64,000 nt of DNA, taken from positions 3,224,001 through 3,288,000 of the forward strand of contig NC_089433.1 of assembly GCF_026210795.1 (NCBI RefSeq), read 5' to 3'. Position 1 is the first letter of the stretch; each line of letters starts with the position of its first letter. The notes under the pieces are model-generated. The model had not been told where the DNA came from, searched no databases, and was given only the letters and a program-made list of their open reading frames with translations. The DNA is from Rhizophagus irregularis. Lineage: Eukaryota. Positions 1 to 56,850 of this stretch are shown in pieces. The translations under genes and the position numbers were made by a program.

Positions 1-2362
1 TTTGGTTTAAAATGGTTGAACAAAATCTTAAATCCCTAACGAGTTCTGTATATGAAAAAATACCGTCAAAGAATGAAGAAACAATTTTCAAAAACAGGAA
101 ACTGGGTTACTCCGAATTAAAATTCCTCCCTAAAGATAACAAAGGAAATCTGAGACCTATTGTTAACATGAAACGCCCGATGCGTACTTCCAATAATATA
201 AAGTGACCAAAATCAATCAATTTCATATTAAATACGACGTTTCAGATCCTTAAATACGAAAAAGTAAGTTTATTAAATAATTTGAATTGAATGTTATTGT
301 AAATATTTAAATATTAATTATTCTTTTTTTTTTATTTGGTAGGAAAAAAATCCTTCATTACTAACTGGGTCTATATTCAATTATAACGAAGTTCATGCTT
401 GTTTAAAAGAATATAAAAAACACTTATCTAATGATGATAATCCACGACTTTATTTTGCTAAAGTTGATATTAAATGTTGTTTCGAAACAATTGATCAAAA
501 TATTCTTATGGAAATAATCGAAAAAGAAGTTCTTACTGAAGTTTGTACAATAATAATTTCTTGTTTGCATAATATAATATCTTTTTTTAATTTACTAATG
601 ATGATTTTTTTAGTACCAATACTCAGTGAATAAATTTGAAGCTATTTATCTAAAAGGTGGAACTATTTATAGAAAACGTGATAACTTTGTTCATGATTCA
701 AGTAAAAGTTTTTCAACACATTATTTATTGTACTTTAATTTAATTATTTTATTTTTTAAATTTATTTTGTTTTTATCATATATATATATTTAGGTGAATT
801 TTTATCTTTTCCGAAATACAGCGCCAAATTAACTCAAAATTATAAAAATGCAATTCTTATTGATAATGTGTATGAATCTTATATGGAAGTAGAGGATGTT
901 CTTGAATTGTTGAAAGAACATATTCAACAAAATATTATAAAGGTAATAAATACAAGTGAATATTATTTAAATGATTTATTTAATTATTTTAACTGATTAA
1001 ATTTATTAATATAGGTTAATGAAGAATATTATAAACAAAAAGTCAGCATTCCACAAGGATTGGTACTATCATCCTTATTATGTAGTATATATTATGGAGT
1101 TATGGAGCGAGAAGAATTTAAATATATCATTAATGACACGAATGGGGTAAGTATTTTTAAATATTATACTTCAATGTACTTACTGATATATTTAATATTT
1201 AATTAATATTATAATATTATTTAAATATTATTAGTTACTATTGCATTTCCTTGATGATTTTTTGTATATAAGTACAAACAAAAATAATGTTATAAAATTT
1301 ATCACAACAATGCACCAAGATGATTTAAAGTATAAAATCGTTGTAAATGATAAAAAAAGTATGGTAAACTTTGATTTAACTGTTAATAATAATAAAATAA
1401 ATAAAGTTGATGGTTATGGTACGTATTTGCTATTTTATTTTATTTTATTGATTATTTGTTTTATTAATTGTATTGTAAAATATTAACTGAATTTTAATAA
1501 GAGTTCCTGTGGTGTGGAATATTAATTGATACTCGTAATTTGGATGTCAAAGTGGATTATTCAAGATACAGCGATTTATCCCGTTAGTATTCTATAATTA
1601 ATTCAAAAACTATTTATTAATTTACTTATTATTATTTATATTAAATTAGATATTGCTAACATTTTAACTATAAAATCGATAAAGACCCCTGGTACATGTT
1701 TAAAGAAAAAAATGATTGAGTAAGCACTATGATTAATATTATGCAAATTATTAATTTTGAATTAATATAAATAATTATTTATTCAGAATTTTGTTAGCAA
1801 AAAGCCATAAAATTTTTTATGATACTTCGCTAAATACAAGAGAAACTACCCTATTAAATATATACCAAAATTTTTTAATGGCTGGAATGAAATTCCACCA
1901 CTGTATAAAAGGAATGCCTAGACAAAAATCCCAAAGAAATAAAGATTTCGAATTTGGTAAATTTTGATTAAATTTTAATAAATTTAATTATTATTTTTTA
2001 CTATCGCAATTTTTTTGTTATTATTACAGAAGTATTACATAATGCTATTGATCATTTATATTTAGTATTATGTAAAACTGATGCATCAAGTAGATATTCC
2101 TTTAATATAAATAAAAAAGAATTTATGTGGTTAGTGTTGTTATAATTTAAATTTATTTTTATCATAAATATTAACTTCATATTTTTTATTATTTAACAAT
2201 AAGGCTCGGTGCTAATGCTTTTTATTACATTTTAAACAAAAAACAAAGCTATCATAAGTACTTTCACATTTTAAAAAATTTCTTGAAAACTCCCAGTTAG
2301 ATAATTTAAATCATATAGTAGATTGTAAGTTATCATTAATTTTTAATAAAATAACATTTTAA
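1..2362 (+). pseudogene. TERT: Telomerase reverse transcriptase (TERT/Est2), RT domain plus C-terminal extension; 5' part lies outside the window; probable pseudogene
   Basis: Predicted exons <1-263, 343-540, 614-701, 794-942, 1015-1146, 1235-1418, 1502-1581, 1650-1718, 1787-1956, 2030-2129, 2204-2362 give TERT motifs in order: 1 (SELKFLPK), 2 (LRPIVNM), A (LYFAKVDIKCCFETIDQ), B' (YKQKVSIPQGLVLSSLLC), C (LLHFLDDFLYIST), E (FLWCGILID), then FYDTSLNT..LLNIYQNF. In-frame TGA at 204-206; apparent frameshift near 2256. Confidence 0.9.
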
Positions 2363-2461
2363 GTTTTGGTATTGTTTAATATTATTTCTTTTTTATTTAT
2401 TTAAATGAAATAATCTTATGATATTAATTAATTAGTAATACAATAGTGAAATTATAAAAAA

Positions 2462-3889: not shown

Positions 3890-4895
3890 TTTTTCACTTT
3901 CTTGTAAGTCAATTAACGCGTTTATTATTCTTATTTTTTTATTTTTTAAACATGTTTTATTACTCTTATTTCCTAACTAAACCACGTTGATTTATTGCAG
4001 GCGGGTTCTAACTTCCCATTTTCTCCTCCCTTTCTTTGCTTTCTTATTTCATTCTTAGGTGTAATAACGTTATTGTTGTTATTTTTCACTTTCTTGTAGA
4101 CGGGTCCTAACTTTACATTTCCTCTTTGTAAGTCAATTAACGTGTTTTATTATTTTTTTAACATGAATTTTGTTACTCTTATTTCACTAAACCACATTCA
4201 ATTTTGCACTTTCTAACTTTCCATTCTTTTTTTTGCTTTTTTAGGCGACTTTCCTTCATGCCTTTCCCTTTCTCTTAATACCCATTCTTCTTACTTTCAC
4301 CTTCCTTACTTTATGTTTCAAAAGGAAATTAAAGACGTTAGAAACAAAACGGGTAGATTTGCAAGGTTTCCTTGCGAAATTTTTTTTTTTTTCAATTAGA
4401 ACGAATTTCTTTAAGCAAGTTCTTTTAGGCGATATCATAAGATTCCTTTCAAACGAAGAATCTGTAATAATGGTAAATTTTATTAATATATTTGGGTTTT
4501 TTTTTATGGAGAGCAATTTTCTTTAGGTTTTCATTCTTAGATGTAATAACGTTATTGTTGATATTTTTCACTTTCTAGTAGACGGGTCCTAACTTACATT
4601 TCCTCCTTGTAAGTCAATTAACGCGTTTTATTATTTTTTTAACATGAGTTGTTACTCTTATTTCATTAAACCACATTCAGTTTTGCACTTTCTTCTAACT
4701 TTCCATTCTTTCTTTGCTTTCTTAGGGGACTTTCCAATTTCTTTAAGCAAGTTCTTTTAGGCGATATCATAAGATTCCTTTCAAACGAAGAATCTGTAAT
4801 AATGGTAAATTTTATTTGTATATTTGGGCTTTTTTTATGGAGAGCAATTTTCTTTAGGTTTTCATTCTTAGGTGCAATAATGTTATTGTTGATAG
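3890..4895. repeat. Imperfect direct duplications (unit of about 480 bp plus a partial third copy)
   Basis: TTGTAAGTCAATTAACGYGT at about 3902, 4126 and 4607; TTAAGCAAGTTCTTTTAGGCGATATCATAAGATTCC at about 4411 and 4743. Confidence 0.8.
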
Positions 4896-4959
4896 AATTG
4901 ATATTTTTTACTTCTTAGTTTTTTTTAGATGAAATGGGATTTTGTTTAATTATTTTAAT

Positions 4960-8701: not shown

Positions 8702-10569
8702 TCATTTAGCCCTCTTCTCGAAAATGATTCCATTATTACTTGGGAGTGCTACAGGACCTAACCTGAATTTATCCTCAATTTTACCACTTTCTGTACGGAT
8801 ATTATAATTTAAAATAGCATTATGCATAAAAAATTTAATTTCATTTATAGCAAGAAATCTTCCAGGGCACCTAAATAATTTATGATATTTAATTAGATTG
8901 ATATTTTATATTTGTTTCAAAAATAATTAAGTTGAATATTATTCTTACATATGTTTACCACCTCCAAATGTCAGGAAATTTCTACCAACTTTTGATGCTG
9001 GAACGTTATGTCTATGTGGTTCAAATGATGTTGGATTTGGACCTTGTAGTGATTCATCATGATAAGTATCGTAAGAATAAATATCAACTACATGACCTTT
9101 TGGTACTTGCAATCCATTAGAAAATGTGTGATCTTTTAATACCCAATGTGGAAGTGCAGCTACATCTCCGGTAAATCTTAATGATTCTCTAATAAAACTA
9201 TCTAAATTTTTCATTTCTTTAAGTGATTCAAATGGAAGTATACCATTTTCATCAGTCTTTTTATGAATTTCCAATTGTTCTTCATACAATTCTTGCATAT
9301 ACTCAGGTCGAGATGCTAAATCCACAACAACATTTGCACAAGCTCTTGATGTTGAATGAATTGAAGCAAAAATAAATATGCTTAAATTACTTGCCAATGC
9401 AGTATAATTAATATTATTGGGGTCAAAACTTTTTTGTTCCATAAAATCTTGAAGTAAATCAGTAGGTCGCTTCCATGAATCACCATATTTTTGTTTCTCT
9501 CTTAAACGCTTATCAACTTGATGTTTAACATGTTTAATAAGCGTATTTACATGTCTAGTTACCGGATTATACAACCCTAATCTTATTGGAATACGTTTAA
9601 CAAAATCTTGAAGACCCGGAAAAATTAAATCAAAAATTGGAGGAATTAAAAAAAATACTGCTATATCTTTTGTAAATTCCGCGAAAGTGCTTATAACATC
9701 ATCATATTCTGATTCCTCCTAAGAAATAAAAAATCAGAAAGAAAATTTTAAAATTTTAACATATTTTTTTAAACAAAATCTCACAATATTACTTACTTCA
9801 CCAATAAAAACATTTGCGATAGAAGCTGAAATAATTTTTGTTATCGCAGAATAAATATTATAAATTACTTTTTGATCATTACAATCACCAATGTGTTTTT
9901 GAGTGGCCAAATAAAGTGATTTTTGTATGCGTTCAGTATATAAATTCAATTTATTTGAAATAGATGATCCTCTAATCATTTTTCCATAAGATCTTAGATC
10001 GCCAAAATTATCAATACTCGTATACATGACATCACCAGGTATCATTTTTCTAAACAGTACCCCAAAATCAAACACGTCACTTCTTGAGAGTACTTCATGC
10101 GTATATTCTTTTCCTATAAGTATGGTATAATATTAATTCCGCATCACTGAAATGTTAAATCAAAAAATACGGATAACTACTTTACCAACAAACGTAATTG
10201 TTCGACCCCATATATATAAACTAAACATTTCACCATACTAATACAGTAATTTAAAAAAAAGTTTATATTAATGAAGTAAATAAATTTAATGCGCTATTTT
10301 ACCAACCTCTTTTCTGCATTGACCAAGGAATTTTTCACAATTAAACGTATATCTAAACGTATGTCCAATAATTGGAATTTTATAACGAACGAGTGGTGGC
10401 ATATTCTAATGAAAAGAAAATTTTTTTAAGAAAAGGAGCGTTTCCAGTAAAATTTTATTTATAGTAATATTAGTATTAGTTAATATATTACCAATTTTGG
10501 ATCACGCGGATGCTTTAAAATATAGAGCGTTGTCAATAAAATAAATCCTAAAACAATGGTTTGAAACAT
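8702..10569 (-). CDS. Cytochrome P450 (fungal CYP512/CYP503 ent-kaurene-oxidase-like type), six exons
   Basis: ATG 10569, N-terminal membrane anchor, PP..IPIIG, I-helix FASIHST, ExxR (IRESLR), heme motif FGGGKHM|CPGR split by an intron, stop TGA 8702-8704. Frame appears intact. Confidence 0.92.
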
Positions 10570-18120: not shown

Positions 18121-19985
18121 ATGTATCAAGCGATCATTTTGGGATCCCTTCTGTTTATAACGCTTTACATTTTAAAGCGTAAGCGTGAACCAGAATTGGT
18201 AAGATAATTGATTTAAACAGAATTTTATCGCTTTTTCTCCTTTTTCTCAATTTTATTTTATTTTATTTTCTTAGACCATGCCGCCACTTGTTTCTTACAA
18301 ATTCCCAATTATTGGCCATACTTTTGATTTTTTTTTAAATCCCGAAAAATTTCTTAAACAATGTAGAGAAGAAGTTCGTATATCAACGAATTTTTTTTTT
18401 TTTTTGGCGTAAAAATTCAATTAACGTTAATTATTAATTATATATAATAGTATGGTGATATCTTTTGTCTATATATATGGGGTCAAGTGAGAGTATTTGT
18501 TGGTATAGAGATTGCTCGTATTTTTTTTTGCATAAATATAAAATATTTTATATATTCTAATTTATAAATTCTTTTTAATTACTGCACAAACTTGTAGGAA
18601 AAGAACATTTTGGTGAAGTATATTCAAGAGATGATGTGTTTGATGTTTTAAAAGCATTCAACAAACGATTTCCGATAGATGTATTATGTCCAGATTTGCT
18701 GAAAGTTTCACCAGTTGCACCAAAAACACTTAAAGACACGATCTTTAGCAAATTAAAACTTTATTCTGATCGTATGCAAAAAAGGGTTTATTTATCAACT
18801 CAAAAACATTTTGGAGATTGTGATGAATCAAAAATTTTTTATAATCTATTTGAAATTGTAACAAAAATTATTTCTGATCCTATTGCAAATATTATTATTG
18901 GTGAAGTAAGTATAGATACTTTTTTTTTTATGATACTAGTTAATTTTGAAAGAAAAAAGTTTTAAAAGAAAATTACTTCTTTTATAGGAGGAATCACAAC
19001 ATGAAGAAGTTTTAAATTCATTTGCAAACTTTATAATAGATAGCATGATATTTTTAACTATTCCACCATTTCTTGATATAATTTATCCAGGACTTCAAGA
19101 ATATGTTAATCGTATTCAGATAAGATTAGGATTATATAATCCAGCAGTTAAACATCGAAAACCACTCCTTAAACATATAGAAAAGCAAGTATGTAAACGT
19201 TTACAAGAGAAAGAAAAATATGGTGACTCTTGGAAACGTCCTGATGATCATCTTCAAGATCTAATGGAAGAACATGATCCTAATAATATTAGTTGTCCGT
19301 ATCTTTTAGACAGAATATATCTAATCATTTTTGCATCAATTCATACAACGGCAATAGCCATTACAAATGTTATTTTAAGTTTAGCATCAAGACCCGAGTA
19401 CATGCAAGAATTATATGAAGAACAATTAAAAGTTCATAAAGAAACGAATGTAAATGGTATAATTCCATTTGAAGCTCTTAGTGATATGAAAAAATTAGAT
19501 AGTTTTATTAGAGAAACATTAAGATTAAGTGTAAATGTTGCGGGAATTGACCATCTCGTAAAGAAAGATTATACGTTCTCTAATGGATTGCAAATACCAA
19601 AAAATTGTATAACTAGTATTTATATTGATGATGTTTATCGAGATGAACCAAAATCATTTGAACCATTCAGACATTTAGATATAAATGTAGCATCAAAAGT
19701 CACTAAAAATTTTTTGACATTTGGAAATGGTAAACACACGTGAGTATATTTATGTATATATGTATTGTAGTACAGTAAGTCAACAACTCAGTTATTATTA
19801 AATTATTTAGATGCCCTGGAAGACAACTTGCTGTAAATAATATTAAATTTTTTATGCATAACGTTATCTTAAAATATAATTTTCGTACAGTAAGTAGTAA
19901 AATTGAAGAAAGCAGAGGAACGGGTTTTACGGCATTACCAGTTGAAACAAGTACTGCTGGTGTGATTTTTGAAAAGAGGGTTTAA
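18121..19985 (+). CDS. Cytochrome P450, paralogue of 8702-10569, six exons
   Basis: ATG 18121 (MYQAIILGSLLFITLYILKR), same intron positions as the minus-strand P450, FASIHTT, IRETLR, FGNGKHT|CPGR, stop TAA 19983-19985. Confidence 0.92.
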
Positions 19986-24517: not shown

Positions 24518-27500
24518 ATGTTTACTTGCCCATTTCAACAATGTCAAAGAACCTTTTCACGTCGACCTGCACTTCGTGAACATACAAAAACACATCAAGG
24601 TCAGGCCTATTGGGAAATATTAAACAGAATTACGGAAAATTCTCATAATATTGTGGAAGATATAAGAGTTGATTATTCTGACGAAAATATAACATTTGAG
24701 ATGGTATTTTTTTAAAAATTTTTTATTTGTGATGTATTTTTTTTTTTTTGATATGATCACAAATGTAATGTAACTTATATTAATTATTTGTACAACGATT
24801 TAATATTATAAAAGGAAGATGAACATGAAGATAATTTTACCGTAAACGAAATTTATGCCATAGATGAACATGATGTAGATGAATATGATGTAGATGAACG
24901 TGATGTAGATAATACTAACGAAATATTAGAATTTGAAGTTGAAGAAGAACCCAATTTTGAACATATCAACAATTATATCTTACGGATTCCTGAAATAACC
25001 TATCAAATAACTTCAATTGATACAAGATCCGTTTCAGATCATAGTGTTCCTCAATTTCCTGATACTGCTTATGCTGAATTTATGAAACTTGTATCAACAC
25101 ATCACTTTTCTAATTCAGCTGGAAACGATATATTAAAGTGGTTTCGAAGACATTATCTCTGAGAAAATGTAATTTTACCAGCAAATACTACACAAGGACG
25201 TGAGTTTGTTAATTCTATGAATATAGAACATTTATTATATCTCAAAACAAAAATATTAGAATATGAAAATGAAGAGTATTATCTTCATCATCGTCCCATT
25301 TTTGATGCTGTTAAAGAACTTTTATCCAATGCTGATATTCTGAAACACTGTCAATGGGATTTTTTACCAGAATATATTGTTAATAATGATGATGGTCATC
25401 ATGAACGTGTATATGGAGAACAATGGTCTGGGATGTGGTGGGAACGTATCCAAAATTTACTTGGAACGAGTGTGAAAAAGGTTTTATCCATAATTTTATA
25501 TTCTGATGCCATCACACTGGACCATCTTGGTAAAAGTTCAGAACATCCTGTTTATTTATCATTGGAAAATATTCCCAATTGGCGTAGAAATAAATGTGAT
25601 GCAAAAGCTTTGCTGGGTTTTTTACCTAAATTAAAACAAATTCACAATCGCAAAGATAATAAAAAAAGTTTTGCATCTGCTAAAAGAATGTTATATCAAC
25701 ATTGTTTTGATATCATGACAAAACCAATCTATGAAAAGTTAGAAAGTGGCTTGGACATCGTAACTGATAATCAAATAATTTGGGCTTTTCCGTTCCTTTC
25801 TGAATTCATAGGTGATCTACCTGAAGATGCTGCATTGACTTTAACTTACAATTCTTCTATATGCAAGCGTCCATGTCATATTTGCACTATCACAATTGAT
25901 GAGTTGAATAAACCTGATTTATCACATTCTCAAATAGAATTGCGAACACCCAATAATATGCAATTTATTCTGGATGCTAATATTTGTCATGAATATTCTA
26001 TTCATCCAACAAAAAATATTTTCTGGAAGTTTCGGTAAGCAATGATGCATTTGATTAATTAATATAAATAAATAAACTAAGTTTTTTTTTTTTGATAGTG
26101 AATTAAACATTTATAGTGCTGCGGTACCAGATCGCATGCACCATTGCGATCTGGGTTTATTTAATTATCAAGTTAATTTTACTCTCAAATATATTCAATT
26201 GCATTGTGGTGAAGAAGGAATTGATGAATTTAATAGACGTTTAGCAGAAATACCACATTTTTCCGGACTCAAATCCTTTAAACATGGTCTTGGTAATATT
26301 GCACGTTTCACAGCAGCAGAATTTCGAAATATGATGAAGCAATTAATTTTCGTTATTGACGGCTTAATTATTGCAAAATATAAGTCAAATTTAAACCAAA
26401 ATCAAGTGAAACAATGTGATAAAAAACTTGTTGATTTATTTTTATCATGGAATAAGATGTATATTTTTAGTCGTAAAGATACCTTTACAGACTCAGAACT
26501 TAATAATTTTCAGGTAAATTTATAATTTTTTAAAGTAATTTTTGAACATGAATATATTATATATGTCTAACTTTAATTTATTATAGGAAATGATTACTGA
26601 CTGGGCAAAAAAATTTCTTGCCTTATTTGCACCAATTGTAGATACTGAAATGAGATATCCAAAATTACACAATTGGTGTTACCATATTGTTACTTCTGTA
26701 CGAGAATATGGAGCAATAAATGGTTTCTCAACTGATACTTATGAATCTTTGCACAAATATTGTGTCAAAATTCCTTACAGAATGAGTAATCGTCGGGATG
26801 CAATTTCACAAATAGTCAAAATGGTATAGTTAATTTTTTAATAGTACATTATGAATTATTATAAATTATTATTATTAATAATTATTTTAAATAATATTAG
26901 GTACGACATGATAGTATTCTTAAATATCTTCAAAGGATAACATCACCTTCACCTTTTATTAAACATCGTCATCGTAGTAGTTCTGTATTAGGAGGATTTG
27001 AAGATAGTTTCGTATTATCTGATTTTAACAAGTTTGTTAATGAATATAAGACTAAACATTTTTTGGCATTTGAAGCTGAGAAGGCATTTGATGTATTAAT
27101 TGATTCTTTAAATCAATATTTCGATATGATTCAAGATATTACTGAAGATGATGTTGAAGCAACCATTATAAAATGGTATACTAATGCATTTATTGGAGGA
27201 ACTGATACTATACGAGCTAAAAGCAACTATTATAATTTACCTGCTTTTAGTAGTATTGCAATTAATATGGATGAAAGAGAAGCTGAAACATATAATACAT
27301 TTAATGGATTATGTTTCGCTAAAGTAAGTTCAAGCTTTATTATTTTGTTTGTTTATTTCTTATTATCAAAAAACTAAATTAATTTTATATAAAATAAAGC
27401 TTTTAATGCTATTTAGCTTAAAAATTCCCGGTCATGAAGAGTAAGAATTAGCACTTATTCAATGGTACGATTTTAAAAATAATAATTCACATAAACTGCT

Positions 27501-31834: not shown

Positions 31835-32327
31835 ATAGTTTATTCTTTTTTTTGGTTTAGGTTAAGACTATAGAACTATGTCCTACGGCTTTTTGTGAGA
31901 TTTTTTTTAGTCAATGATATTGTTCTGACTAATAAATTCGTGTGAAAATTTTTTTTTTAGTGAGAATTTTTGATTTAGTGAGAACTTTTTCTGTTTATTG
32001 AGATTTTTTTTTCGATTTAATGAGAATTTTTTTTATGAGATTGATTTTTTCAATATTATTTCTGACTAATAAATTTGTGAAAAATTTTTTTGATATTAAC
32101 GAATTTTTTTTGTGAGATTGTTTATAATTATATAGATATTTTGTATTAAATCAATAATAAATTTTTTGATAAATCTATATAACTAAAAAAACTATATAAC
32201 TAAAAAAATTTGTCTGACGTTTGGACTAGTTTTATTTGATTATATATAGATTGAAATTCGAAGAAAATAGTACCAACAAAACTTTTTTATTAAAAGTCCA
32301 AAATACATATATATTTTATTAATAAGT

Positions 32328-35300
32328 ATGCCTTTGTGTACGTGTACTCACTGTAAAGCTTTAACAAATGGTATTGGAAAAGAAATTCATAGAACAACAG
32401 TAATTCGTCATATGAAAAAAGAACAAGAGGAGCAAGAACTAGAAAATGCATACCAAAGTCTTCATTCTGAAGAAAATTATTTTGAAGAAAATGAAGAAAA
32501 TGAAGAAGAAAACTCATATGAAGAACGCTCATCTCCTATGGAAATATCGGAAATATCTGACAATGAAGAAATTCTTATAGAGGAAGAAAATCTTACTACC
32601 TTACATAATGATGAGGCTTCTATAGAAATTCTCTCCAATTTTCAAGATGAGGATGAGGAAATTGATGATTACTATCATGAAAGCGATGACTTAAACCATT
32701 ATGATTCTCAAAGTGAATTAGAGTTTAATACCTCTGATGATAAAGAAGGTGAATTTCGAAATAATTATAATAATATTTTAAATTAGTAATTTACCAACTT
32801 TTTTTAGATAATACGACTTTTTCTAATGAATTGTTCGAAGGATTAAGGCTTTTATATGTGAAATCGAATTTTAATTTTTCTGAAGCAGCATTTAATAATA
32901 TATATAAAGCCTTCAATAGAAATAAAATAAGTTTTAATAAAGTAAAAAGAAAGCTTGGTTCAATAGTAGGAATTGAACCAAAAATATACGATATGTGCGT
33001 TAATTCATGTTGTGCATTCGTAGGAGTTTTAGAAAATGAAACAAAATGTAAATTTTGTAAGGAGGATCGATATTATAGTAATGGTAAAGCGAGAAAAAAT
33101 CTACCTTTTATTTCTATAATTGAGCGTTTAAAGCTTCAATTTAAAAACCCTGAAAGATCAAAAGAACTATTATATAGGCACAATTATACTTGTAATAAAG
33201 GAGAATTTGCTCATAATAACATAGGTGACATCTTTGATGGACAGATTTATCAAGAATTATTAAATGACGAATATTTTCCTGATCCAAGAGACATCGCATT
33301 TACTGCATCTTGCGACGGCTACCAAATATTTCGTCAAAAGACTGATGATTGTTGGGTGTTCCTGTTTCTAAATAATAATTTACCTCAAGAATTAAGAGTA
33401 AAGAAAGAAAATTTAATGGTAACTTTAATAATCCCGGGGCCAAAACAACCTCAAGATTTTAATTCATTTCTCTATCCATTAATTCAAGAAATGAAATCCT
33501 TACAAGGTATATTTTAAATAAATGGTACATAATAAATGTAATATTTATTAATAATATTTTTAATATTTACAGATGGAATCTCTTGTTACGATGGTAACAA
33601 AGAGGAACAGTTTACTCTACGTGCTCACATTCTGGCTTGGACCGGCGATATCCCTGCCCTTTCAAAGGTTCTATGTTTAACAGGACATAATTCATAGTAC
33701 TCAGGTTGCAGATTTTGTAATCTTCGAGGGACTTTAAATGAAACGAATAGACATGTGTATTATCCATTGCAACAAAATATTGATCCTAAACGATTACCAA
33801 TTCGAACACATGATGAAATACTGAATAGCACAAATCAAATAGAACGTCTGGAGGGAGATCGTAGAGAAACTTATATACGTGACTGCGGTTGGTCCAATAT
33901 TTTAAAATAAAAATAAATTCTTAGTAATTAATTTTCTCAATTTTAAAAATTTTTTGTTTATTAAAAAAAATTAGGAATTAAAGGAAAGAGTATTTTATTT
34001 GTTTTATCTTCTATAAATTTTCCACGTTCATTTCCAGTAGATATAATGCACCTTTTTTTCGAAAATGTTGCACCCCATATGTTTCGACATTGGATAGGAA
34101 AATTCTATCCAAAAAATAATGAATGGAACTCAAATGAATATACAATAAGTTCTAAAACATGGGTTGAAATTGGTGAAATCATGGAACAAAGTAGATCTCA
34201 TATGCCACCTGATATTGGACGTCCTCCACGCAATATCGTTAAACATTCAGCTGGGTTTAAAGCTGTAGAGTGGGCTAATTGGATCATTTTATTCTTTTTA
34301 CCATTACCTAAAAGGGCGATTGCCGCAAAGGTAATAAAAAAAATCAAATTGTTGGCAGATAAAATAATAAAAAGTCTGCTGATAACATTATTTAACTTAA
34401 AATAATAGTAACCTCTTAGGATGGTCAAGATTTGTTGAAGCTGTCAAGTTATGCATTCAACCTCTAATAGAATTTGAAGAGCTAGATTTAATTCGAAATT
34501 TATTAATAGAATTTTACAATCATTATGCAAAGTAATTTTCTTATGAAATTTATATATGCCTTTTTCTTTAAACGATATTTTAATTGATCACGTGAATTTT
34601 TTTGTGCAATAGTTCATATGGCGTTGGAGGAGAAAGATTACCAGCATTTTTAATTTCTTTTCATTATTTATTACATGTAATAGATTCGATTGAAGACTTT
34701 GGCCCTTGTCGTGGATTTTGGCAGTTTCCGATGGAGAGGTTTTGTGGAATGTTAATTCCACTTGTTAGCTCTCGAAAACTACCATATGTGAATTTGTTTA
34801 ATAATGTGTTGATGCAAGAAAGATTTAAGTATCTGCAACTTTTACCAATATATAATGAAAAAGTTTTTTCCAATTTTAAAGAAAAAGAAAAAAAACATGG
34901 CCGGTGCATAGAGTATATTCTAATGAATTATATGTTCACGAATACGAATTTTATTCACCATTTGTTAATTGTGTATTAACAAAAAATGAAGTCATAAAGT
35001 TAAAGCAATGTTATGCAGCTATATTTCAAAAGAATACTAGCGAAATTACGGTGATTTTATATTATAACTCACATAATAATATGTATAAGAATATTCTTTT
35101 TTAAAAAAAATAATATATAATTTTTTTTATATAGGACATTAAAGAAAACTATGCTAAGTATGGAAAACTTCGTACAAAGGATGGTAATATTATATCATCT
35201 AAGTGGTGGAAAAAAGAAAATGATAGTAGTCGAAATGATTTTTGCGTCGCTGTAAGAAATAAATACCGTATTCATCCGAAAATAAGCAACAACTTTTTCA

Positions 35301-40557: not shown

Positions 40558-42478
40558 TTATGTATTATAAATTTTATTTAACTTTTCAATTCTTTTTCTT
40601 TTGGCTTCATTCTTAAAGGCTTTGTATAACCGTTTCCCGTCAAAACGGGAAACCAGTTGGTTCGTTCTTACTAATTCCAGCCACCTTTCAAAATTTACCA
40701 CTCCTATTTTTTTTGCGGTAAATAGGTAAGGATCTAAATCTGAAAAGGCATAAACAATATTATAATTATCTGATGCCATTTCCAGTAATCTTTTAGCTCT
40801 CACCGCCTTGTTTAAAATTGTAGATATAGTGGTAGCCTTTAACCGTGGTGCTATTTGATCTGGTAATTTTGATGATTTTTCGATCATCGTAATAACTTGA
40901 GATTTAATAGTTTCCCCTTTGTTTCGCTCATAATTTATACTGCAATAAATTTCGAGCCTTTCATAATATTCTAAGAATAAAATGAGATGCTGAAATTGCC
41001 GGCATCTTAGAATTTCAGTGGATACTTGATCTTTTAATGATAGATCGTATATGTTTAATATAATATTTGTTATTGCCGTACAGGCCAATTTTTTCTTATT
41101 TTCAAATTCTCGTGAGTCAGATAAATTGACCAATAAACTAGGATCATTTATTTCGGCAATAATATCCTGATTTATTATAGGATCATCCGGGCTTATGATT
41201 TGGTGATCCAAACTTCCTTCGCCAGTCTCTTCTTTTTCATCATTTAAAATATAGCTTATGGAAGCTCTTTTAGAAGAAACTTCAATGAGCACGAATTTGT
41301 CAATGTTAGTTGAAAAAAATTCATCCACACTGGCGATTTTGGATAAATGGTCAATAAGAAAATAATGATATTCTTCTTTATTTGGAATATCGTTATTATT
41401 CGTTGGAGGGGGGGTTGGAAGTTTATGGATATTATTGAGGAGGATGTGTAAATGACGTCCCATATTAATTGTCGATTCCGGAATACTATGGTTCTCTTCC
41501 TCATTCACTTCCTCGTCTTCTTTCTTGCCTATTTCCTCGCCTATTTCCTCGCCAAAGATTAACTGATCTTCCTTTCTTTTCTCTTCCTCGTCTTCTTTCT
41601 CATCTTTTTCTTCGCCCAGGATTAACTGCTGATCTTCCTCTCCTTTCTCATCCTCGTCTTCTTCCTCGTCTTTTTCTTCGCCCAGGATTAACTGCTGATC
41701 TTCCTCTCCTTTCTCATCCTCGTCTTCTTCCTCGCCTTTTTTTTCACCCAGGATTAACTGCTGATCTTCCTCTCCTTTCTCATCCTCGTCTTCTTCCTCG
41801 TCTTTTTCCTCGCCTAGAAATAACTGATCTTCCTCTCCTTTCTCATTCTCTTCGTTTTCCTCTATATCCATTTTTTCGTCAGGAGCTATCTTTTCTCCGC
41901 CATCGTCATGGATTATCTTATCCTCTTCGTTTTCCTCTATATCCATTTTCTCACCATCCTCGTCAGGAACTACCTTTTCTCCACCATAGTCATGAATTAA
42001 CTGATCTTGCATTTCCTCATCCTCCTCACCCTCCTCATCCTCAATAATATCAATTGTTTTATCACTTTCATAACCGTAGTGATAAACATCATCTTCTGTT
42101 ACTTCACCATCATTATCATTAATATTATCTTTATTGTGATCTATATCAACGACTGGTACCTGAAATTTATGACCGTTTGGCAATTCTAATAATATGCTAG
42201 ATTCGTCGATAATTGCTTTTTTATAACCACATTCTTTTAAAAATCTTTGTGTCTTTAGTATTGACGACAATAATTCTATTATATATACAATAAAATATTT
42301 AATTATTTACTATATATAATAAATAAATTAATAAATGCAATAAAAATACTTTTATACTTGCTTTATTATTATCGCCTTTTTCTGCTATGAATGTAGAAAT
42401 ATCAGACGTCGCTGCTGCACTTGTTCCTGCAAGTGAAGAATCAGACATTTTTGATGGAATGAATGGAATGAAAGACAT
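40558..42478 (-). CDS. Hypothetical protein with acidic 22-aa repeats and a helical C-terminal domain; probable transposon cargo or accessory gene
   Basis: 570-aa open frame plus a likely first exon (ATG 42478 or 42448, intron about 42357-42276); 66-nt tandem units at about 41550-41850 (GEEKDEEEDEDEKGEEDQQLIL). Confidence 0.7.
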
Positions 42479-50202: not shown

Positions 50203-53200
50203 GTAGATTTATATAAATAAGGGGCTTTTTCCTGAAATTTTTTTTTATATTTTTTTTAATAGATGTATATATGTGCTTATATATACATATATATATATCT
50301 ATTAACTTTAATACTTTACGAAAAGCCCCTCCTCTATAAATAGGTAGAGGTCATAAAGTACCTATAGGGGGAGAACTATTGCTGCTCCCTCTGCCTGTTT
50401 TATAGTGATAAAAAGAGGGAGTCTTCAGTAGTAAGGTTTGATGTGTATTTATACACATTAATTAGTAATATTAAACAACACAATAAACTACACCTAGTAT
50501 TAAAAAGTATGTATAATGTTAAAAAACACTAATAAAAATGGTTGTATTTCTATACTAAATTGCAGTATAACAAACTTCGTATTTATATATATTGCTTATT
50601 GGCATTTAACAATATGTTAAACTACATTTGTGTTGAAAAATATGTATAGTATTAATAAATGGTAATAACAACTAGTGTATTTTTATACTAAATTTTAATA
50701 AAACAACATTTTGTATTTGTTTACATTGATTGATGGCATTAAACTACATTGCATATCATATTGAACTATACTTGACATCAAACAACATAAAAAAACTTGT
50801 ATAATTATATGTATATAACAGCATTCAGTATTAATCATTACAGTATACAGTATTAAACAATAGGATATATCATATTAAACAACTTCTTAATGTTAATTAA
50901 CACTAAAATTATATAAAGCAACACTTTTAAAACTTGCTGATGACAAATCTACTGAGAATATTATGCACTGGAATTATGCAATCTCGACCTTCAGGGTAAA
51001 ATTCAGTACCCCAAAGTTCGACATTGCAAATTTCATCGTCTTCAATACTGAAATAATAACGAGAATTCGCTGGTTGATACCATTGAATGAATGCCAAATT
51101 ATGTTCCAATTCTCCATCCGGTAAGTCAACCTTGTGAGAAAAAAAGAATTGAACTTGTCCGGGATAACAATCAACGCTACCGTCTTGTGTTATAAATTTG
51201 GCTAAAATATACGAGTTCTTTACGTGTCGAGCAAACATATTTGACCCAAATGTCTCTGAACTGATTCTACATCTACCGAACTGTTTCATTTTGACGGAAA
51301 TGATCTTTGAATTCTCATGGCCTTCTCTGAATGGCTTTTGAAACTCAAGTGTTTCATAAGTCGCCAAATAGTATTCGACCAGTAAATCAAGCATTGAATT
51401 TGATATCACTACATTTTCAGAGGCGGGACCCAACATTTCACCTGGAAATGACTCGCTTCCAGTGACTATTGATTGTTGAATATTTCGCGAATTCAACCAA
51501 AATCGTTTTATTTCATCGGCTGAAAATTCGTCAACCTCTGCCAAGGATCCAACAAAAGTTCGGTTATTGAGAAGTTCTAGTCCCCTTACATTTTCTCCAG
51601 AATTTATAATACTATCAATGTGGATATCAGCCATCATTCGTCGCATAATTTCCAGTTCTATTTTCCTATGGCTATTTGGTAAGACGCCTAAAATTTAAAA
51701 TTACGATTACGCATAAATTAAGAATAAGAATATTAAACCTAAATAAATAGTTATAGTTTACCTAATATACCATTCATGCGTTCGAAGGAGAAACACCAGA
51801 ATGCGTATAAAGGTCCAAAATCATACGTACATTCACTCAAATGAAATGAAAGATGGAAATTAGGAGTAATTTTATTTCGTCCATAATGTTCCTCAATGAA
51901 CTTCACAATTTCAATCAATTTCTCATGCGATTCTCTCATAGCATCAAGTTCTAAAATTTGACTTACGAAAGCTGTACAAACTCTCACAAAATGATGGAGA
52001 ATTTTCTGATCATGTACCGAAAGGTGACTCCATAGCGATACTGTAGCATAAATTGTGAAAAAGATTTGCCATTGATCTGCTGTAAAATTTGAAAATCCTT
52101 CTCTGCAATGGATTTTCCCAGGGATTCGTCCCAAATCGGATGGAATCTGAAACTCATCCATTTTTTTTTGAATTTTTATAAACGATTGTTGGTTTAAAAT
52201 TCCTTCATCAACCCAAATTCTTTTCACTATCCATCTCACAATGCCTAGAAATAAGCAGTACATTGGATTGACAACAATGAACCTTATAGGGTCGAAGTAT
52301 AACAACCACAATAATTCTGACCATCTAACTCCAGTATCTTTCGTAAAATGTTTTCGTGAAGCATTAGAGTTACAACGTCGCCATTCATGTGCATTTTCAC
52401 GAAACTCGGCCAAATCTCAAGTAACAAACCATTCGTCTATATTGTCTATCCTGGCGAAATTATTTTGTCGATTCTCATAATTTGCTCGTTTTTTGCACCA
52501 GTGACATAATGCAAGCGCTAAAATATGTCCGCATATCTTCCTTACCACGGGAACATCACACAAAACTAGTACTAAAACTGCACGAATATTTTTTCCGTTT
52601 TGGCATTCAAATGTTCGATTTAGAGTTATTCCACTCTATAGTAATTCTAAATCATTGACAATTGGTGCTAAATAGTGATTGATTTGGTGTAAGCTCACTT
52701 CGTTAGGACCTGGTAATATTCTGAGAATTAATAAATTTTCTCTTTTAAATCAAATGTCTCGAGGCAAGTTTCAAATGGCGACATATATCACACCGGTGCT
52801 GTGAATTGTCCCTTCATAGGGTTGGAACCAATCCACATTCAGCATTAGACCGAGGTGTGAATCTGCAACTTTAGGCCGGAAAAAATTAGGCGAATCATGA
52901 TAAGAAGTATCCTTAAATGTTTACTACACTTGACCATCGTAAATGTCAGTCAATATATTTTCAGAATGTAATCGATCGGACCAATGTCTGAGTGACCTTT
53001 CGAATTCTGATCGAAGATATAGGGTTGCTAATTGTTGACGAATTGTAGAAAATGGATAAATCATCTCAATTCAATTTGACATTCTATTTAATAATCTTAT
53101 TTGATGAGATAAAGGAGTTTGGCACTTCTGGCGTCTTGATGAATTTGGAAATTCGATATGTTGACATTTCATAATGGCAAGAATTTCATCTTGACGAAAC

Positions 53201-54789
53201 TCCTCTACTTCTTGTTTGTTGTATAATTTGTGACACTTCGTACATGCTGCAAAGCAATGAAATCGATCTTCTATGTTGAGAATATTTCTCGCTTTATATA
53301 AAGTGACGGGAAAATTTTCAAATGCAGTATCGCCAATTTCATCCAATAACAGTTTTATGAACTTTATTAGTGATTCAGTTGCTGTTTCTGGAATGTTAAA
53401 TCTCATTCGAAATTTCATAATCCATATTAAAATCCATAAAAACTTATTATCATCGCTAGTTGGAGTTGGAGTGACATCTGGGTCTTGATATGGTTCGAAA
53501 GAAGGGCATGAATAATCTTCAAAAGTTTCAGATTTGTTATTTTCCGATTCGTCATCTCCATTCAATTCGTTATCATTAGTGTCTTCGCTTTGATCTTTGG
53601 CCATACTTTCTCTCAGTAATAAATCTTGTTCGATGTTACTGATGTTACCAATGGAAACTCTAGTCAAATATACCTTGATCTACGTCTTTGAGGCAATCGG
53701 TCAACTCTTTGCTCATTTAAAATAGTCAATTGAGATGATTCATCATTAATATTTTCAGTATTTTCCAAAACTTCAGATGGTTCATTATCCCAAATTTCAG
53801 TATTTTCCAAAACTTCGATAGTTCGTTATCCCGAATTTCAGTATTTTCGATAATTACTTCTGAAACATCTGACGAAAGTTGGCTTGATAATTTATGTCAA
53901 TTCTTTGTGCGAGGAGCAACTAATATTCCTTCGCAATCGCTACAGAAACAGGGTACTTTATGAATTCTTGGCTGAATGATTGATCGAGTAGTAACTCGAG
54001 GTGATCTGGTAGTAATAGGATTTTCATCAAGTACACTAGATATCGTTCTTTTTCGTCCCATTTTGTCAAAAATTTCAGATAATTTTGATAATTATGGAAT
54101 TGTATCGAAATTTGTTTCGATTCAATAATTATCATATAATTGTTACTAGTGAAGTTTCGACTAATGAATTTTCAACTTGAGCGATCAACTTAAAAGTGAT
54201 TTATCGAATTCTCATCAAACTTTATGAATTTTCCATTAACTTTAAGTGATGTATTGAATTCTCATCAAACTTTACGAATTTTCCATCAACTTTAAGTAGG
54301 ACCCCGGAAAATGCTTATATATGTAAGGTACCAAGGTGCTTAGCCAACATAGTAAAGTTTTATGATGTAAGAATTTTATAATGCTTAATTTTAAGAAAAT
54401 TTTATACTATGTAAGATAATTAAATTGCATATTTTTGGTATTATTTTAAAATACTAAGAGTTTTTAGTTGCTTATTTTTCATATTTATATAACTTTTTAA
54501 AATATTATATATTGAATTTATAATTAATTTTTATTTTATTTTCACTAACGGTGAGTGTTAATTTTGTACTACATTTCACAATTTTATATAAATACATAAA
54601 CAAAAATTTTTTTTTGATGAAATTTCATTTTTTTTTTCAATGTTTTATTAATTATCTGTCAATAGTATCTTTTTAATTTTTATTAAACTCAGTGTATTAT
54701 TTTTAATATAAAATTACTGTATTATACATGTTTATTTTGTTAAATAAAATTACTATAAATATGTTTTACTTTAAAATATAATTTCACTA

Positions 54790-55524: not shown

Positions 55525-56850
55525 ATGCTTAGCGATCATAGTAAAAACCTATGCTTAGAGCTACTAATAAAAAATATTTTTGGGATCTTACCTATATAAG
55601 TATTTTCCGGGGTCCTATGGAAGTGGTGAGAGAGAAGTCAATGTGGTTGTTGAAGTTGCTAAAACTAGTGATGAAGACGGAGATAATAGCGAACAATTGA
55701 TAAATAAAAACTCATTAAGTAATCAAGATGTTGATATGATAGAAGTCCCTGGGAACGCTGAAGAATGTGTCCAGGAAGCAGGTTATGAGGTTATTGAAGT
55801 TGCTAAAAAAACTAGTGATGAAGATGGAGATAATAGCGAACAATTGATAAATAAAAACTTATTAAGTAATCAAGATGTTGATATGATAGAAGTCCCTGAG
55901 AACGCTGAAGAATGTGTCCAGGAAGGAGGTTATGAGGTTATTGAGGTTGCTAAAAAAACTAGTGATGAAGATGGAGATAATAGCGAACAATTGATAAATA
56001 AAAACTCATTAAGTAATCAAGATGTCGATATGATAGAGTTCCCTGGGAACGCTGATGTATGTGTCCAGGAAGCAGGTGATGAGGTTGGTAAAATGACCAA
56101 AACTAGTTATTTGTGTCCAGTATACAATAATAGAGGTACCGATGAAGAAAACATGTTTGGCGAACAAATGGTAAACAATAACTCTGAAAGTAATGAAGAA
56201 GATGTAATTTTATTCAAAAATGCTTTCATTAGCGAATACTATGATGACGTAGAAAGTAGTTTTAATGCATTAAATATTACAAATGATTATAATATTTGGC
56301 CTCAATATACATCGTTAAATGCTGTTGAATTGTCACAAAGTCACGAGCTTTCTCATTTTGAACATCAAGTTCATTCGTCTACTTATTTACAACTATCTGA
56401 AATGTACGATTACGGTGATAATTATTCACAAAATATTGATTTATCGTTACGTGATGAAAGAAAATCATTAGATATAAACAAATCTTTAAAATTGTCTAAA
56501 AAACTATTGAAAGAAACAGAATTAAAAGATTCGATTATTTCTGTTGCTTATCCTAAATATAGAAATTCTGAAAATTTAAATTATTTAGAGAATAATAATT
56601 TTTTAAACATACTTGAAAATTGTTTAATTGCAGAAATCAAATCAGAATCACAAAAATGCGAATTATTATTAAATTATTATAGGACTGGGGCATATTTAAA
56701 TAAAGTATTAGAAGACTTAAAGAACGAGTTATCTGATATATCTGAAATTATTGAACGAAATATATGTACTGCTATAGTCGACAATTTTAAGTTCCGTAAA
56801 ATGATTTCCGAAAAATAAGTTTTTAATATATGCAGGGTTATACGTAATTA
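55525..56850 (+). pseudogene. Hypothetical protein with three 49-aa acidic repeats; frameshifted start and premature stops
   Basis: 412-aa frame 55580-56818 with 147-nt repeats; ATG 55525 joins it only with a 1-nt shift in a T run near 55577-81; similarity to the 47236 ORF continues past the TAA (EK*VFNICRVIRN* versus RKFVYDCKKARNF). Confidence 0.6.

What the first reader, a model, noticed from the sequence alone, without database searches (positions are those of the whole stretch)
1..2362. TERT copy apparently degraded by CpG transitions in conserved motifs
Seen: catalytic aspartates (motif A VD, motif C DD) and ten introns are retained, but several departures from the TERT consensus can each be explained by one CpG-to-TpG/CpA change: stop at 204 (CGA>TGA), motif B' GIPQGS to SIPQGL (GTC GGC>GTC AGC; TCG>TTG), motif C LLR to LLH (CGT>CAT), motif E FPWCG to FLWCG (CCG>CTG). 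There is also an apparent frameshift near 2256. Established: TERT is usually single-copy and needed for telomere maintenance. Inference: this is an extra, methylated and dead paralogue made by DNA-level duplication, so an intact TERT should exist elsewhere. The ancestral codons are inferred, not observed.
Basis: partly seen in the sequence, partly recalled or inferred. Interest (0 to 1): 0.72.

Follow-up and report, generated by a model that had tools for sequence, protein, structure and literature searches.

The report
Dead copy of extra telomerase gene
The window starts inside an intron-containing extra copy of a telomerase reverse transcriptase-like gene of the mycorrhizal fungus Rhizophagus irregularis that carries a premature stop and a 4-base deletion, so it is likely a young dead duplicate, while a separate full-length telomerase gene model exists in the same species.

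Summary
Window 3-2362 (+) holds the 3' two-thirds (RT and C-terminal parts) of a TERT-like gene: 11 exons and 10 GT-AG introns. It has one in-frame TGA (204-206) and a 4-base deletion at about 2256-2259.

Sister copies have Arg (CGA) at the stop, GIPQGS where the window has SIPQGL, and FPWCG where it has FLWCG. Their C-terminus runs on in the frame the window loses. One claim fails: "LLH" in motif C is shared by every arbuscular-mycorrhizal TERT examined, so it is not decay.

Contigs of two sequencing runs from different studies carry the TGA. The same runs also hold an ~84%-identical paralogue.

The locus is not a copy of the canonical TERT, a 1320-aa model only ~60% identical. It belongs to a diverged, short-linker TERT-like lineage with two groups:
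- Group B has an open frame over all 531 codons.
- Group A has several ~97-99% identical variants on different large contigs; the window is one.

A-B dN/dS is about 0.2 and protein rates are equal, so decay is recent. All 27 amino-acid variants among A copies are transitions. All 21 that could be polarised are G:C>A:T, and CpG sites are enriched. Methylation and expression were not tested. The locus is an ordinary young pseudogene; the family looks unreported.

The parts
3..263 (+). Exon 1 of the part in the window (the gene starts upstream of the window). It holds TERT motifs 1-2 (…KFLPKDNKGNLRPIVNM, 114-170) and the in-frame stop.
   Evidence: Aligns with R. irregularis TERT-like proteins.
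204..206 (+). In-frame TGA (codon 68 of the model). Sister group-A copies have Arg, group B has Gln (CAA), and canonical proteins have Arg or Lys.
   Evidence: T at 204 is in the contigs of runs X5 (410 of 410 bases identical) and X6 (408 of 410). C at 204 is in the X18 contig and in the paralogue contigs.
162..245 (+). Cryptic 84-nt GT-AG 'intron' (GTTAAC…TTTCAG) that the public gene models P0018 and P0019 use to skip the stop. It removes 28 codons that are coding in every other copy.
   Evidence: P0018 and P0019 read …NLRPI|ILKYEK…; window sequence.
343..540 (+). Exon 2, with motif A (LYFAKVDIKCCFETI, 448-492; Asp at 466-468).
   Evidence: Weak RVT_1 match (E 0.059).
614..701 (+). Exon 3.
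794..942 (+). Exon 4.
1015..1146 (+). Exon 5, with motif B' read as SIPQGL. AGC at 1045-1047 (ancestral GGC after GTC, a CpG site); TTG at 1060-1062 (ancestral TCG).
1235..1418 (+). Exon 6, with motif C LLLHFLDDF (His at 1244-1246, Asp-Asp at 1253-1258). The His is shared by all AM-fungal TERTs examined.
1502..1582 (+). Exon 7, with motif E read as FLWCG (CTG at 1507-1509; ancestral CCG).
1650..1719 (+). Exon 8.
1787..1956 (+). Exon 9, part of the TERT C-terminal extension.
   Evidence: Pfam TERT_C (PF21399), E 8.4e-10, 39.5 bits against a cut-off of 27.
2030..2129 (+). Exon 10.
2204..2362 (+). Exon 11. A 4-base deletion at 2256-2259 shifts the frame, so the present frame stops at TAG 2298-2300. 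The ancestral frame (2258-2359) is still open and ends at TAA 2360-2362.
   Evidence: The C-termini of P0004, P0018, P0008 (group A) and P0007 and L001 (group B) continue in the ancestral frame.

Best explanation
Window 3-2362 is the 3' part of an unprocessed (intron-retaining) duplicate of a TERT-like gene of Rhizophagus irregularis that carries an in-frame TGA and a 4-base deletion and is therefore most likely a young, non-functional pseudogene.

Shown:
- It belongs to 'group A', a set of ~97-99% identical TERT-like variants reported on several different large contigs.
- Group A's sister 'group B' (about 80% amino-acid and 85% exon-DNA identity) has an open frame over the same 531 codons.
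- A third, canonical long-linker TERT model (1320 aa, ~60% identical) exists in the same species.

Inferred:
- A diverged TERT-like gene was kept under purifying selection and then copied as DNA to several places in a transposon-rich genome.
- The copies are now decaying almost only by G:C>A:T transitions, with CpG sites over-represented. This is the signature expected from deamination of methylated cytosine in repeated DNA.
- In this copy those transitions gave the stop (CGA>TGA) and the changes in motifs B' and E. A microhomology-flanked 4-base deletion then removed the last 34 residues from the frame.
- Telomere maintenance would rest on the canonical gene, and possibly on group B.
For: Gene model and family:
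- 11 exons, 10 GT-AG introns and one in-frame stop.
- TERT_C match at E 8.4e-10.
- tblastn of the canonical protein P0031 against the window gives E about 1e-97.
- Species names come from the named hits.

The stop:
- 7 of 7 other group-A proteins covering the site have Arg.
- Contigs of runs X5 and X6, from different studies, carry T204.
- Each of those two runs also holds a paralogue contig with C204 (64 mismatches in 410 bases in X5).

The deletion:
- There is a 4-base gap against the group-B DNA L001.
- 3 of 3 group-A proteins covering the site continue in the other frame.

Stepwise decay:
- The public model P0019 equals the window at 336 of 337 compared residues.
- The closest other copy, P0018 (498 of 501 identical), still has Ser248 and the intact C-terminus.

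The family was once constrained:
- A-B dN/dS is 0.19-0.20 by NG86, YN00 and ML, and 0.37 by LWL85. The bootstrap interval for NG86 is 0.14-0.26.
- Third codon positions differ at 20.6%, against 11.4% at positions 1 and 2.
- The relative-rate test gives 27 A-derived against 28 B-derived residues.
- L001 is open over 531 codons with all its splice sites.

Mutation signature among group-A copies:
- 27 of 27 variable residues are explained by single transitions. The A-B baseline for nonsynonymous changes is 53 transitions to 19 transversions (Fisher p 0.001).
- 21 of 21 polarised changes are G:C>A:T.
- 12 of 27 are at CpG, against a background of 50 of 419 (p 2.5e-5).

Background and context:
- R. 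irregularis methylates CpG, most strongly in repeats and transposons (PMC8647823, section 6 read).
- The rest of the window holds Plavaka and Tnp2 transposase remnants.
Against: - The 4-base deletion is seen only in this assembly.
- Expression was not tested.
- Public annotation gives the locus a protein (P0019) by splicing round the stop.
- CpG observed/expected at the locus is ~1.0, so long-standing heavy methylation is not indicated.
- All 20 splice dinucleotides and the catalytic Asp residues are intact, and the ancestral frame after the deletion is still open. Any loss of function is therefore very recent and rests on few lesions.
- The mutation spectrum comes from protein models only. 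Synonymous and intronic differences between group-A copies were seen only in 410 bases, and some models may be alleles from different strains rather than separate loci.
Confidence: 0.85

Rival explanations
1. The locus is a working gene. The stop would be removed by the 84-nt intron 162-245 that the public models use, and the protein would simply end 34 residues differently. It would then be a shortened TERT-like protein with altered motifs B' and E.
For: - Models P0018 and P0019 use GTTAAC…TTTCAG, which is in frame and of typical intron length.
- All other splice sites and the three catalytic Asp residues are intact.
- The family shows past constraint.
Against: - The 28 skipped codons are coding in the 7 other group-A proteins, in 2 of the 3 group-B sequences aligned (L001 and P0006; the B model P0007 skips them) and in canonical TERTs, and they include a conserved stretch (…SIN.ILNTT.QIL…).
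- The changes fall on residues invariant in every other copy: Gly and Ser of motif B', and Pro of motif E in the canonical proteins.
- The only contig that spans 162-245 in the run guessed to be RNA (X18) is from another group-A variant (C at 204) and is unspliced, including at intron 1.
- The deletion removes a C-terminus that is conserved between groups A and B.
Confidence: 0.07
2. The lesions are assembly or sequencing errors, or the window shows one allele of a heterokaryon whose other nucleus type has an intact copy at this locus.
For: - The deletion was not verified in reads.
- P0003 (same SIPQGL, but FPWCG) and P0018 (SIPQGS, intact C-terminus) look like alternative states of the same locus.
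Against: - The TGA is in the contigs of two runs from different studies.
- A 4-base loss outside a homopolymer is not a typical read error (inference).
- The models P0018 and P0019 both skip the stop region, which suggests the stop is shared.
Confidence: 0.05
3. The decay is driven by an active, duplication-targeted cytosine mutagenesis (RIP-like, but preferring CpG), not by slow spontaneous deamination plus relaxed selection.
For: - 21 of 21 polarised changes between copies are G:C>A:T and 27 of 27 are transitions. 15 of the 27 are outside CpG (8 at CpA).
- The copies are long (over 2 kb) and over 95% alike, which is the substrate RIP acts on in Neurospora (recalled).
Against: - RIP signatures are reported as not detected in Gigaspora margarita or in Mucoromycotina (statement in PMC8647823, passage seen).
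- Each copy has few changes (1-3% of residues), and GC content and CpG observed/expected are almost the same as in group B.
- Relaxed selection in a strongly AT-biased genome also gives an excess of G:C>A:T.
- Only amino-acid-changing sites were sampled.
Confidence: 0.15

Closest known systems
Canonical TERT of arbuscular mycorrhizal fungi (R. irregularis P0031, R. clarus P0032, Funneliformis P0033 and P0034)
   Same: - Same order of RT motifs 1, 2, A, B', C and E, plus a TERT_C domain.
- Same 'LLH..DDF' form of motif C.
- Forms a 100/100-supported clade with these proteins against Tulasnella and a chytrid.
   Different: - Only 56-60% identical over the window's part.
- Group-A and group-B models lack the ~400-residue linker between TEN and RBD (894 against 1320 aa).
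- This copy has a stop, a frameshift and changed B' and E motifs.
Unprocessed (duplicated) pseudogenes
   Same: Introns are retained at the parental positions, there are a few disabling lesions, an intact relative exists elsewhere, and the location is repeat-rich.
   Different: The parent is itself a paralogue of an essential, normally single-copy gene, and it was amplified to several large contigs.
CpG decay by 5-methylcytosine deamination, and RIP of Neurospora (recalled from general knowledge)
   Same: Only G:C>A:T transitions separate the repeated copies, and CpG is enriched 3.7-fold over background.
   Different: There is no global CpG depletion (observed/expected ~1.0). The density of changes is far lower than in classical RIP, the Neurospora CpA preference is not seen, and methylation at the locus was not measured.
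Organisms with more than one TERT gene, such as the three TERT genes of Euplotes crassus (recalled; no paper read here)
   Same: More than one TERT-type gene in one genome, with a diverged copy kept under selection (A-B dN/dS about 0.2).
   Different: This is a fungus, not a ciliate. There is no evidence here of developmental switching or of activity of the extra genes, and several of the copies are decaying.

Membership tests
TERT (telomerase reverse transcriptase) | TERT-specific C-terminal extension | tested here: met
   Pfam TERT_C (PF21399) on exon 9, E 8.4e-10, 39.5 bits against a cut-off of 27.
TERT (telomerase reverse transcriptase) | RT motifs 1, 2, A, B', C and E in order, with the catalytic Asp triad | tested here: met
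   The motifs are read in the model and align with named TERTs. The Asp of motif A and the Asp-Asp of motif C are present. RVT_1 on single exons is only weak (E 0.02-0.06, collinear). The motif names are recalled.
TERT (telomerase reverse transcriptase) | TEN and RNA-binding (RBD) domains upstream | not testable with these tools
   The window starts inside the gene. Precomputed Pfam gives PF11474 and PF12009 for the clusters represented by P0003 and P0004; the near-identical public model P0019 belongs to the latter.
TERT (telomerase reverse transcriptase) | Uninterrupted reading frame and invariant motif residues (Gly and Ser of B', Pro of E) | tested here: not met
   TGA at 204-206; 4-base deletion at 2256-2259; G243S, S248L and P340L against all group-B and canonical sequences.
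Unprocessed duplicated pseudogene | Introns kept at parental positions | tested here: met
   10 of 10 introns align with those of group-B DNA L001, GT-AG in both.
Unprocessed duplicated pseudogene | Disabling lesions absent from close relatives | tested here: met
   Arg in 7 of 7 group-A proteins at the stop, and the frame kept in 3 of 3 group-A proteins and in L001 at the deletion.
Unprocessed duplicated pseudogene | No functional product (no translation or activity) | not testable with these tools
   No run on record as RNA was listed, and no genome or transcriptome is held.
RIP (repeat-induced point mutation) | Dense C>T/G>A changes confined to duplicated DNA, with a set dinucleotide preference and a RID-type enzyme | tested here: inconclusive
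   Direction and type fit (21 of 21 and 27 of 27). However, density is low, the preference is for CpG (12 of 27), composition is unchanged, and no enzyme search was made.

The most novel reading that the evidence does not exclude
Rhizophagus irregularis carries a second, selectively maintained short-linker TERT-like lineage beside its canonical telomerase gene. One branch of that lineage was scattered over several chromosomes and is being silenced copy by copy by a duplication-targeted, CpG-preferring C>T mutagenesis. That would be the first sign of a RIP-like genome defence in Glomeromycotina, and of a multi-gene TERT family in a fungus.
Probability: 0.15. Interest if true: 0.7.

Novelty: new member of a known kind. 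Interest (0 to 1): 0.4.

Why it matters
TERT is normally a single essential gene. Here one fungal species holds three kinds of TERT-type gene:
- a canonical TERT;
- a diverged TERT-like gene (group B) that was under purifying selection and is still open in the DNA seen;
- several near-identical copies of its sister (group A) in different states of decay.

For annotators, the public models of these loci are patched round stops and should be flagged as pseudogenes or fragments.

For mycorrhizal genome biology, the family is a small natural experiment on how duplicated genes are inactivated in a methylating, transposon-rich, AT-rich genome. It also raises the question of whether the short-linker paralogue has a telomeric or other role. 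Two full-text searches found no paper on TERT paralogues in Rhizophagus.

Tried and rejected
- Whole-genome copy count: no genome is held for this window, so copies were inferred from protein clusters and contig lengths and from run contigs. How many group-A loci one isolate has stays open. Cluster members that share a contig length with the OCT59-tagged models suggest at least two in that assembly; the isolate name is recalled.
- Contig word depth for group A against group B was 75 against 14 in X5 and 20 against 5 in X6. This is only a hint of 4-5 copies, because contig depth is not a copy number.
- Reads over the whole gene: the lay of 1-2400 was not accepted. In X1 nothing useful was laid.
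- Expression: no RNA holder was listed. The run guessed to be RNA (X18) gave an unspliced contig of another group-A variant and may be DNA. This counts neither for nor against expression.
- Splicing rescue: other GT…AG pairs round the TGA break the frame. A 44-nt 'intron' at 2256-2300 would end the protein at once (by eye).
- Alternative genetic code or selenocysteine: there is a single TGA in 531 codons, and relatives have Arg, Gln or Lys there, not Trp or Cys. No SECIS search was made. Judged unlikely.
- Timing of the split from canonical TERT: the tree puts A+B outside the Rhizophagus+Funneliformis canonical clade (support 88/86, not decisive). The AU test does not reject an origin within Rhizophagus (p 0.124). 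Unresolved.
- Short metagenome fragments (P0061 and P0067, 65-74% identical to groups A and B) hint at the lineage in other taxa but are unnamed.
- Earlier notes of this scan: three look-ups returned nothing.
- Pfam on the 24 long ORFs of the window named only 4 of them: two P450, one Plavaka and one Tnp2.

Full report
**What is there.** The window is very AT-rich (22-35% G+C in 2-kb steps). It opens in the middle of a gene on the + strand. Joining open frames across GT-AG boundaries gives 11 exons and 10 introns of 67-92 nt. The exons are 3-263, 343-540, 614-701, 794-942, 1015-1146, 1235-1418, 1502-1582, 1650-1719, 1787-1956, 2030-2129 and 2204 onward. The model of 509 codons has one internal stop, TGA at 204-206, and ends at TAG 2298-2300.

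**Family and species.** Exon 9 alone matches Pfam TERT_C at E 8.4e-10. Exons 2, 5 and 6 give weak, collinear RVT_1 matches. The motif strings for 1-2, A (…VD…), B', C (…DD…) and E are readable; the motif names are recalled. A protein search with exon 2 returned 7 proteins, and all the named ones are from Rhizophagus irregularis. No whole genome is held for the window.

**The claimed lesions, one by one.** The alignment used 12 group-A protein models, 3 group-B sequences and 4 canonical AM-fungal TERTs.
- Codon 68 (TGA): Arg in 7 of 7 other group-A proteins that cover it, Gln in group B, and Arg or Lys in the canonical proteins.
- Codon 243: the window, P0018, P0019 and P0003 have Ser (AGC after GTC). 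7 other group-A proteins and all B and canonical proteins have Gly. Group-B DNA has GGC.
- Codon 248: the window, P0019 and P0003 have Leu (TTG). 8 group-A proteins and all others have Ser. Group-B DNA has TCG.
- Codon 340: the window and 4 group-A proteins have Leu (CTG). 6 group-A proteins and the 3 canonical proteins covering the site have Pro. Group-B DNA has TCG (Ser).
- Frameshift: the window lacks 4 bases at 2256-2259 that the group-B DNA has. The ancestral frame, 2258-2362, is still open, and it is the frame in which P0004, P0018 and P0008 (group A) and P0007 and L001 (group B) continue.
- Motif C: this claim fails. 'LLH' is found in every group-A and group-B copy and in the canonical TERTs of R. 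irregularis, R. clarus, F. geosporum and F. mosseae.

**Independent sequence data.** One run search listed 20 runs holding the stretch, none on record as RNA. The first lay, over 1-2400, was not accepted. The second covered 1-735 in four runs.
- X5 has a contig identical to the window over 1-410, including T204.
- X6, from another study, has a 2418-nt contig with 2 differences that also carries T204.
- Both runs hold a second contig with C204. In X5 it has 64 mismatches and 11 gaps over 410 bases; in X6 it has 39 mismatches over 1-213. This is the group-B paralogue in the same samples.
- X18 holds another group-A variant with C204 (CGA). It also carries 174 C>T and 223 T>C, which match the proteins P0002 and P0004. 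The contig is unspliced.
- X1 gave nothing useful.
- The TGA is therefore not a one-off assembly error. The deletion remains unchecked in reads.

**The gene family.**
- Cluster look-ups show many R. irregularis TERT-like models, mostly fragments, on contigs of 3.46-3.70 Mb, 4.40-4.50 Mb, 5.83 Mb, 7.14 Mb and others.
- P0019 equals the window's model at 336 of 337 compared residues. The single difference is read-through into intron 7. P0019 skips the stop with a cryptic 84-nt intron (162-245).
- P0018 is the nearest other copy (498 of 501 identical) and keeps Ser248 and the full C-terminus.
- A search with the group-B model found a third R. irregularis protein, P0031. It is 1320 aa long, carries TEN, RBD, RT and CTE Pfam domains, and comes with orthologues in R. 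clarus and Funneliformis.
- Over the window's part, the window is 59.6% identical to P0031, 80.5% to group B and 34% to Tulasnella.
- In the maximum-likelihood tree A+B is a 100/100 clade, and the window pairs with P0018 (99/91). A+B lies beside the canonical Rhizophagus+Funneliformis clade (88/86).
- The AU test does not reject an origin inside Rhizophagus (p 0.124).
- Only one TERT-like copy lies in the window.

**Group-B DNA and selection.**
- A metagenome contig, L001 (2902 nt), carries group B and aligns with window 1-2369 at 81% identity.
- Its frame is open over all 11 exons (531 codons), with GT-AG at all 10 introns.
- Exon identity is 85.5% (1361 of 1592 ungapped bases). Intron identity is 82.7% (591 of 715), with 129 gapped columns.
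- dN/dS between the window and L001 is 0.19-0.20 by NG86, YN00 and ML, and 0.37 by LWL85. The NG86 bootstrap interval is 0.14-0.26.
- Third codon positions differ at 20.6%, against 11.4% at positions 1 and 2.
- With canonical proteins as outgroup, A-derived and B-derived residues are equal (27 against 28, and similar with the other outgroups).
- The A lineage therefore evolved under constraint like B for most of its history, and the lesions are recent.

**Mutation signature.**
- After model artefacts are set aside, 27 amino-acid sites vary among the group-A copies. The sites set aside are codons 154, 158, 338, 365, 510-512 and 529-531, plus the deletion codons 496 and 497; all are listed.
- All 27 are explained by a single transition.
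- 21 could be polarised with group B and the canonical proteins, and all 21 are G:C>A:T.
- 12 of 27 are at CpG, 8 at CpA, 4 at CpC and 3 at CpT. The background is 50 CpG among 419 C/G positions.
- Tests: transitions against the A-B nonsynonymous baseline (53 to 19), p 0.001; CpG enrichment, p 2.5e-5; direction, p 1e-6.
- Seven of the polarised changes are derived in the window: R68 to stop, S74F, G243S, S248L, P340L, T375I and E440K. Some are shared with P0018, P0019, P0004, P0003 or P0022.
- Between A and B only 11 CpG sites are shared, out of 28 in B and 25 in A. Most of the others read TG or CA.
- CpG observed/expected is ~1.0 at the locus and in L001, and 1.2 in the whole window, so there is no long-term depletion.
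- Published Nanopore data show bimodal CpG methylation in R. irregularis that is highest in transposons (PMC8647823, section 6 read). The same paper states that RIP signatures were not detected in Gigaspora or Mucoromycotina (passage seen).

**Context.** The rest of the window holds two P450 gene remnants on opposite strands, a Plavaka transposase, a Tnp2-family transposase and several unnamed long ORFs. This is a repeat-rich setting.

**Reading.** The locus is a young, unprocessed pseudogene of a TERT-like paralogue. Three corrections apply.
- LLH is not decay.
- The parent is a diverged short-linker TERT-like lineage, not the canonical TERT.
- Methylation is inferred from the spectrum, not shown.

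The rivals are less likely: a working gene spliced round the stop, an error or allele effect, and an active RIP-like process. Each is stated with its test.

**Limits.**
- The number of copies per isolate, the read support for the deletion, methylation and expression all need the full assembly and raw data.
- The spectrum among group-A copies rests on protein models. Some of these may be alleles of one locus in different isolates.
- Two literature searches found no paper on TERT paralogues in Rhizophagus (listings only). This does not prove that none exists.

Noticed in passing
window 8945-10132 (-) and 18579-19743 (+): Two cytochrome P450 gene remnants (Pfam p450, E 6.5e-30 and 1.2e-27) lie on opposite strands about 9 kb apart. 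Their translated sequences are clearly related, so this looks like an inverted duplicate pair.
   Followed up: partly
window 24812-27377 (+): A run of long ORFs includes a Plavaka transposase domain (E 7.3e-35). This is a CACTA-like DNA transposon remnant.
   Followed up: partly
window 32271-34979 (+): ORFs with a Tnp2-family transposase domain (E 1.6e-10). The ORFs at 50927-53679 (-) gave no Pfam hit, but by eye their Cys/His-rich stretches look like another transposase.
   Followed up: partly
window 40558-42306 (-) and 55571-56818 (+): Two long ORFs (582 and 415 aa) hold tandem acidic repeats (Glu/Asp-rich units of ~20-45 residues). Neither has a Pfam match.
   Followed up: no
window 3900-4900: Direct repeats of ~160-210 bp at 91-96% identity (4047-4254/4529-4735 and 4404-4563/4736-4894) lie downstream of the TERT-like copy.
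   Followed up: no
proteins P0007/P0027, P0024 (group B models): Public group-B models also skip or frame-shift exons: in P0007 the motif C and E exons are absent, and P0024 reads GIPQES. Yet the group-B DNA seen here (L001) is open throughout. These are either strain-specific lesions or annotation artefacts.
   Followed up: partly
L002 (metagenome contig, 2178-2363) and proteins P0061, P0067: Unnamed environmental fragments are 59-74% identical to the A/B lineage. This suggests that related TERT-like genes occur in other, unidentified AM fungi.
   Followed up: partly
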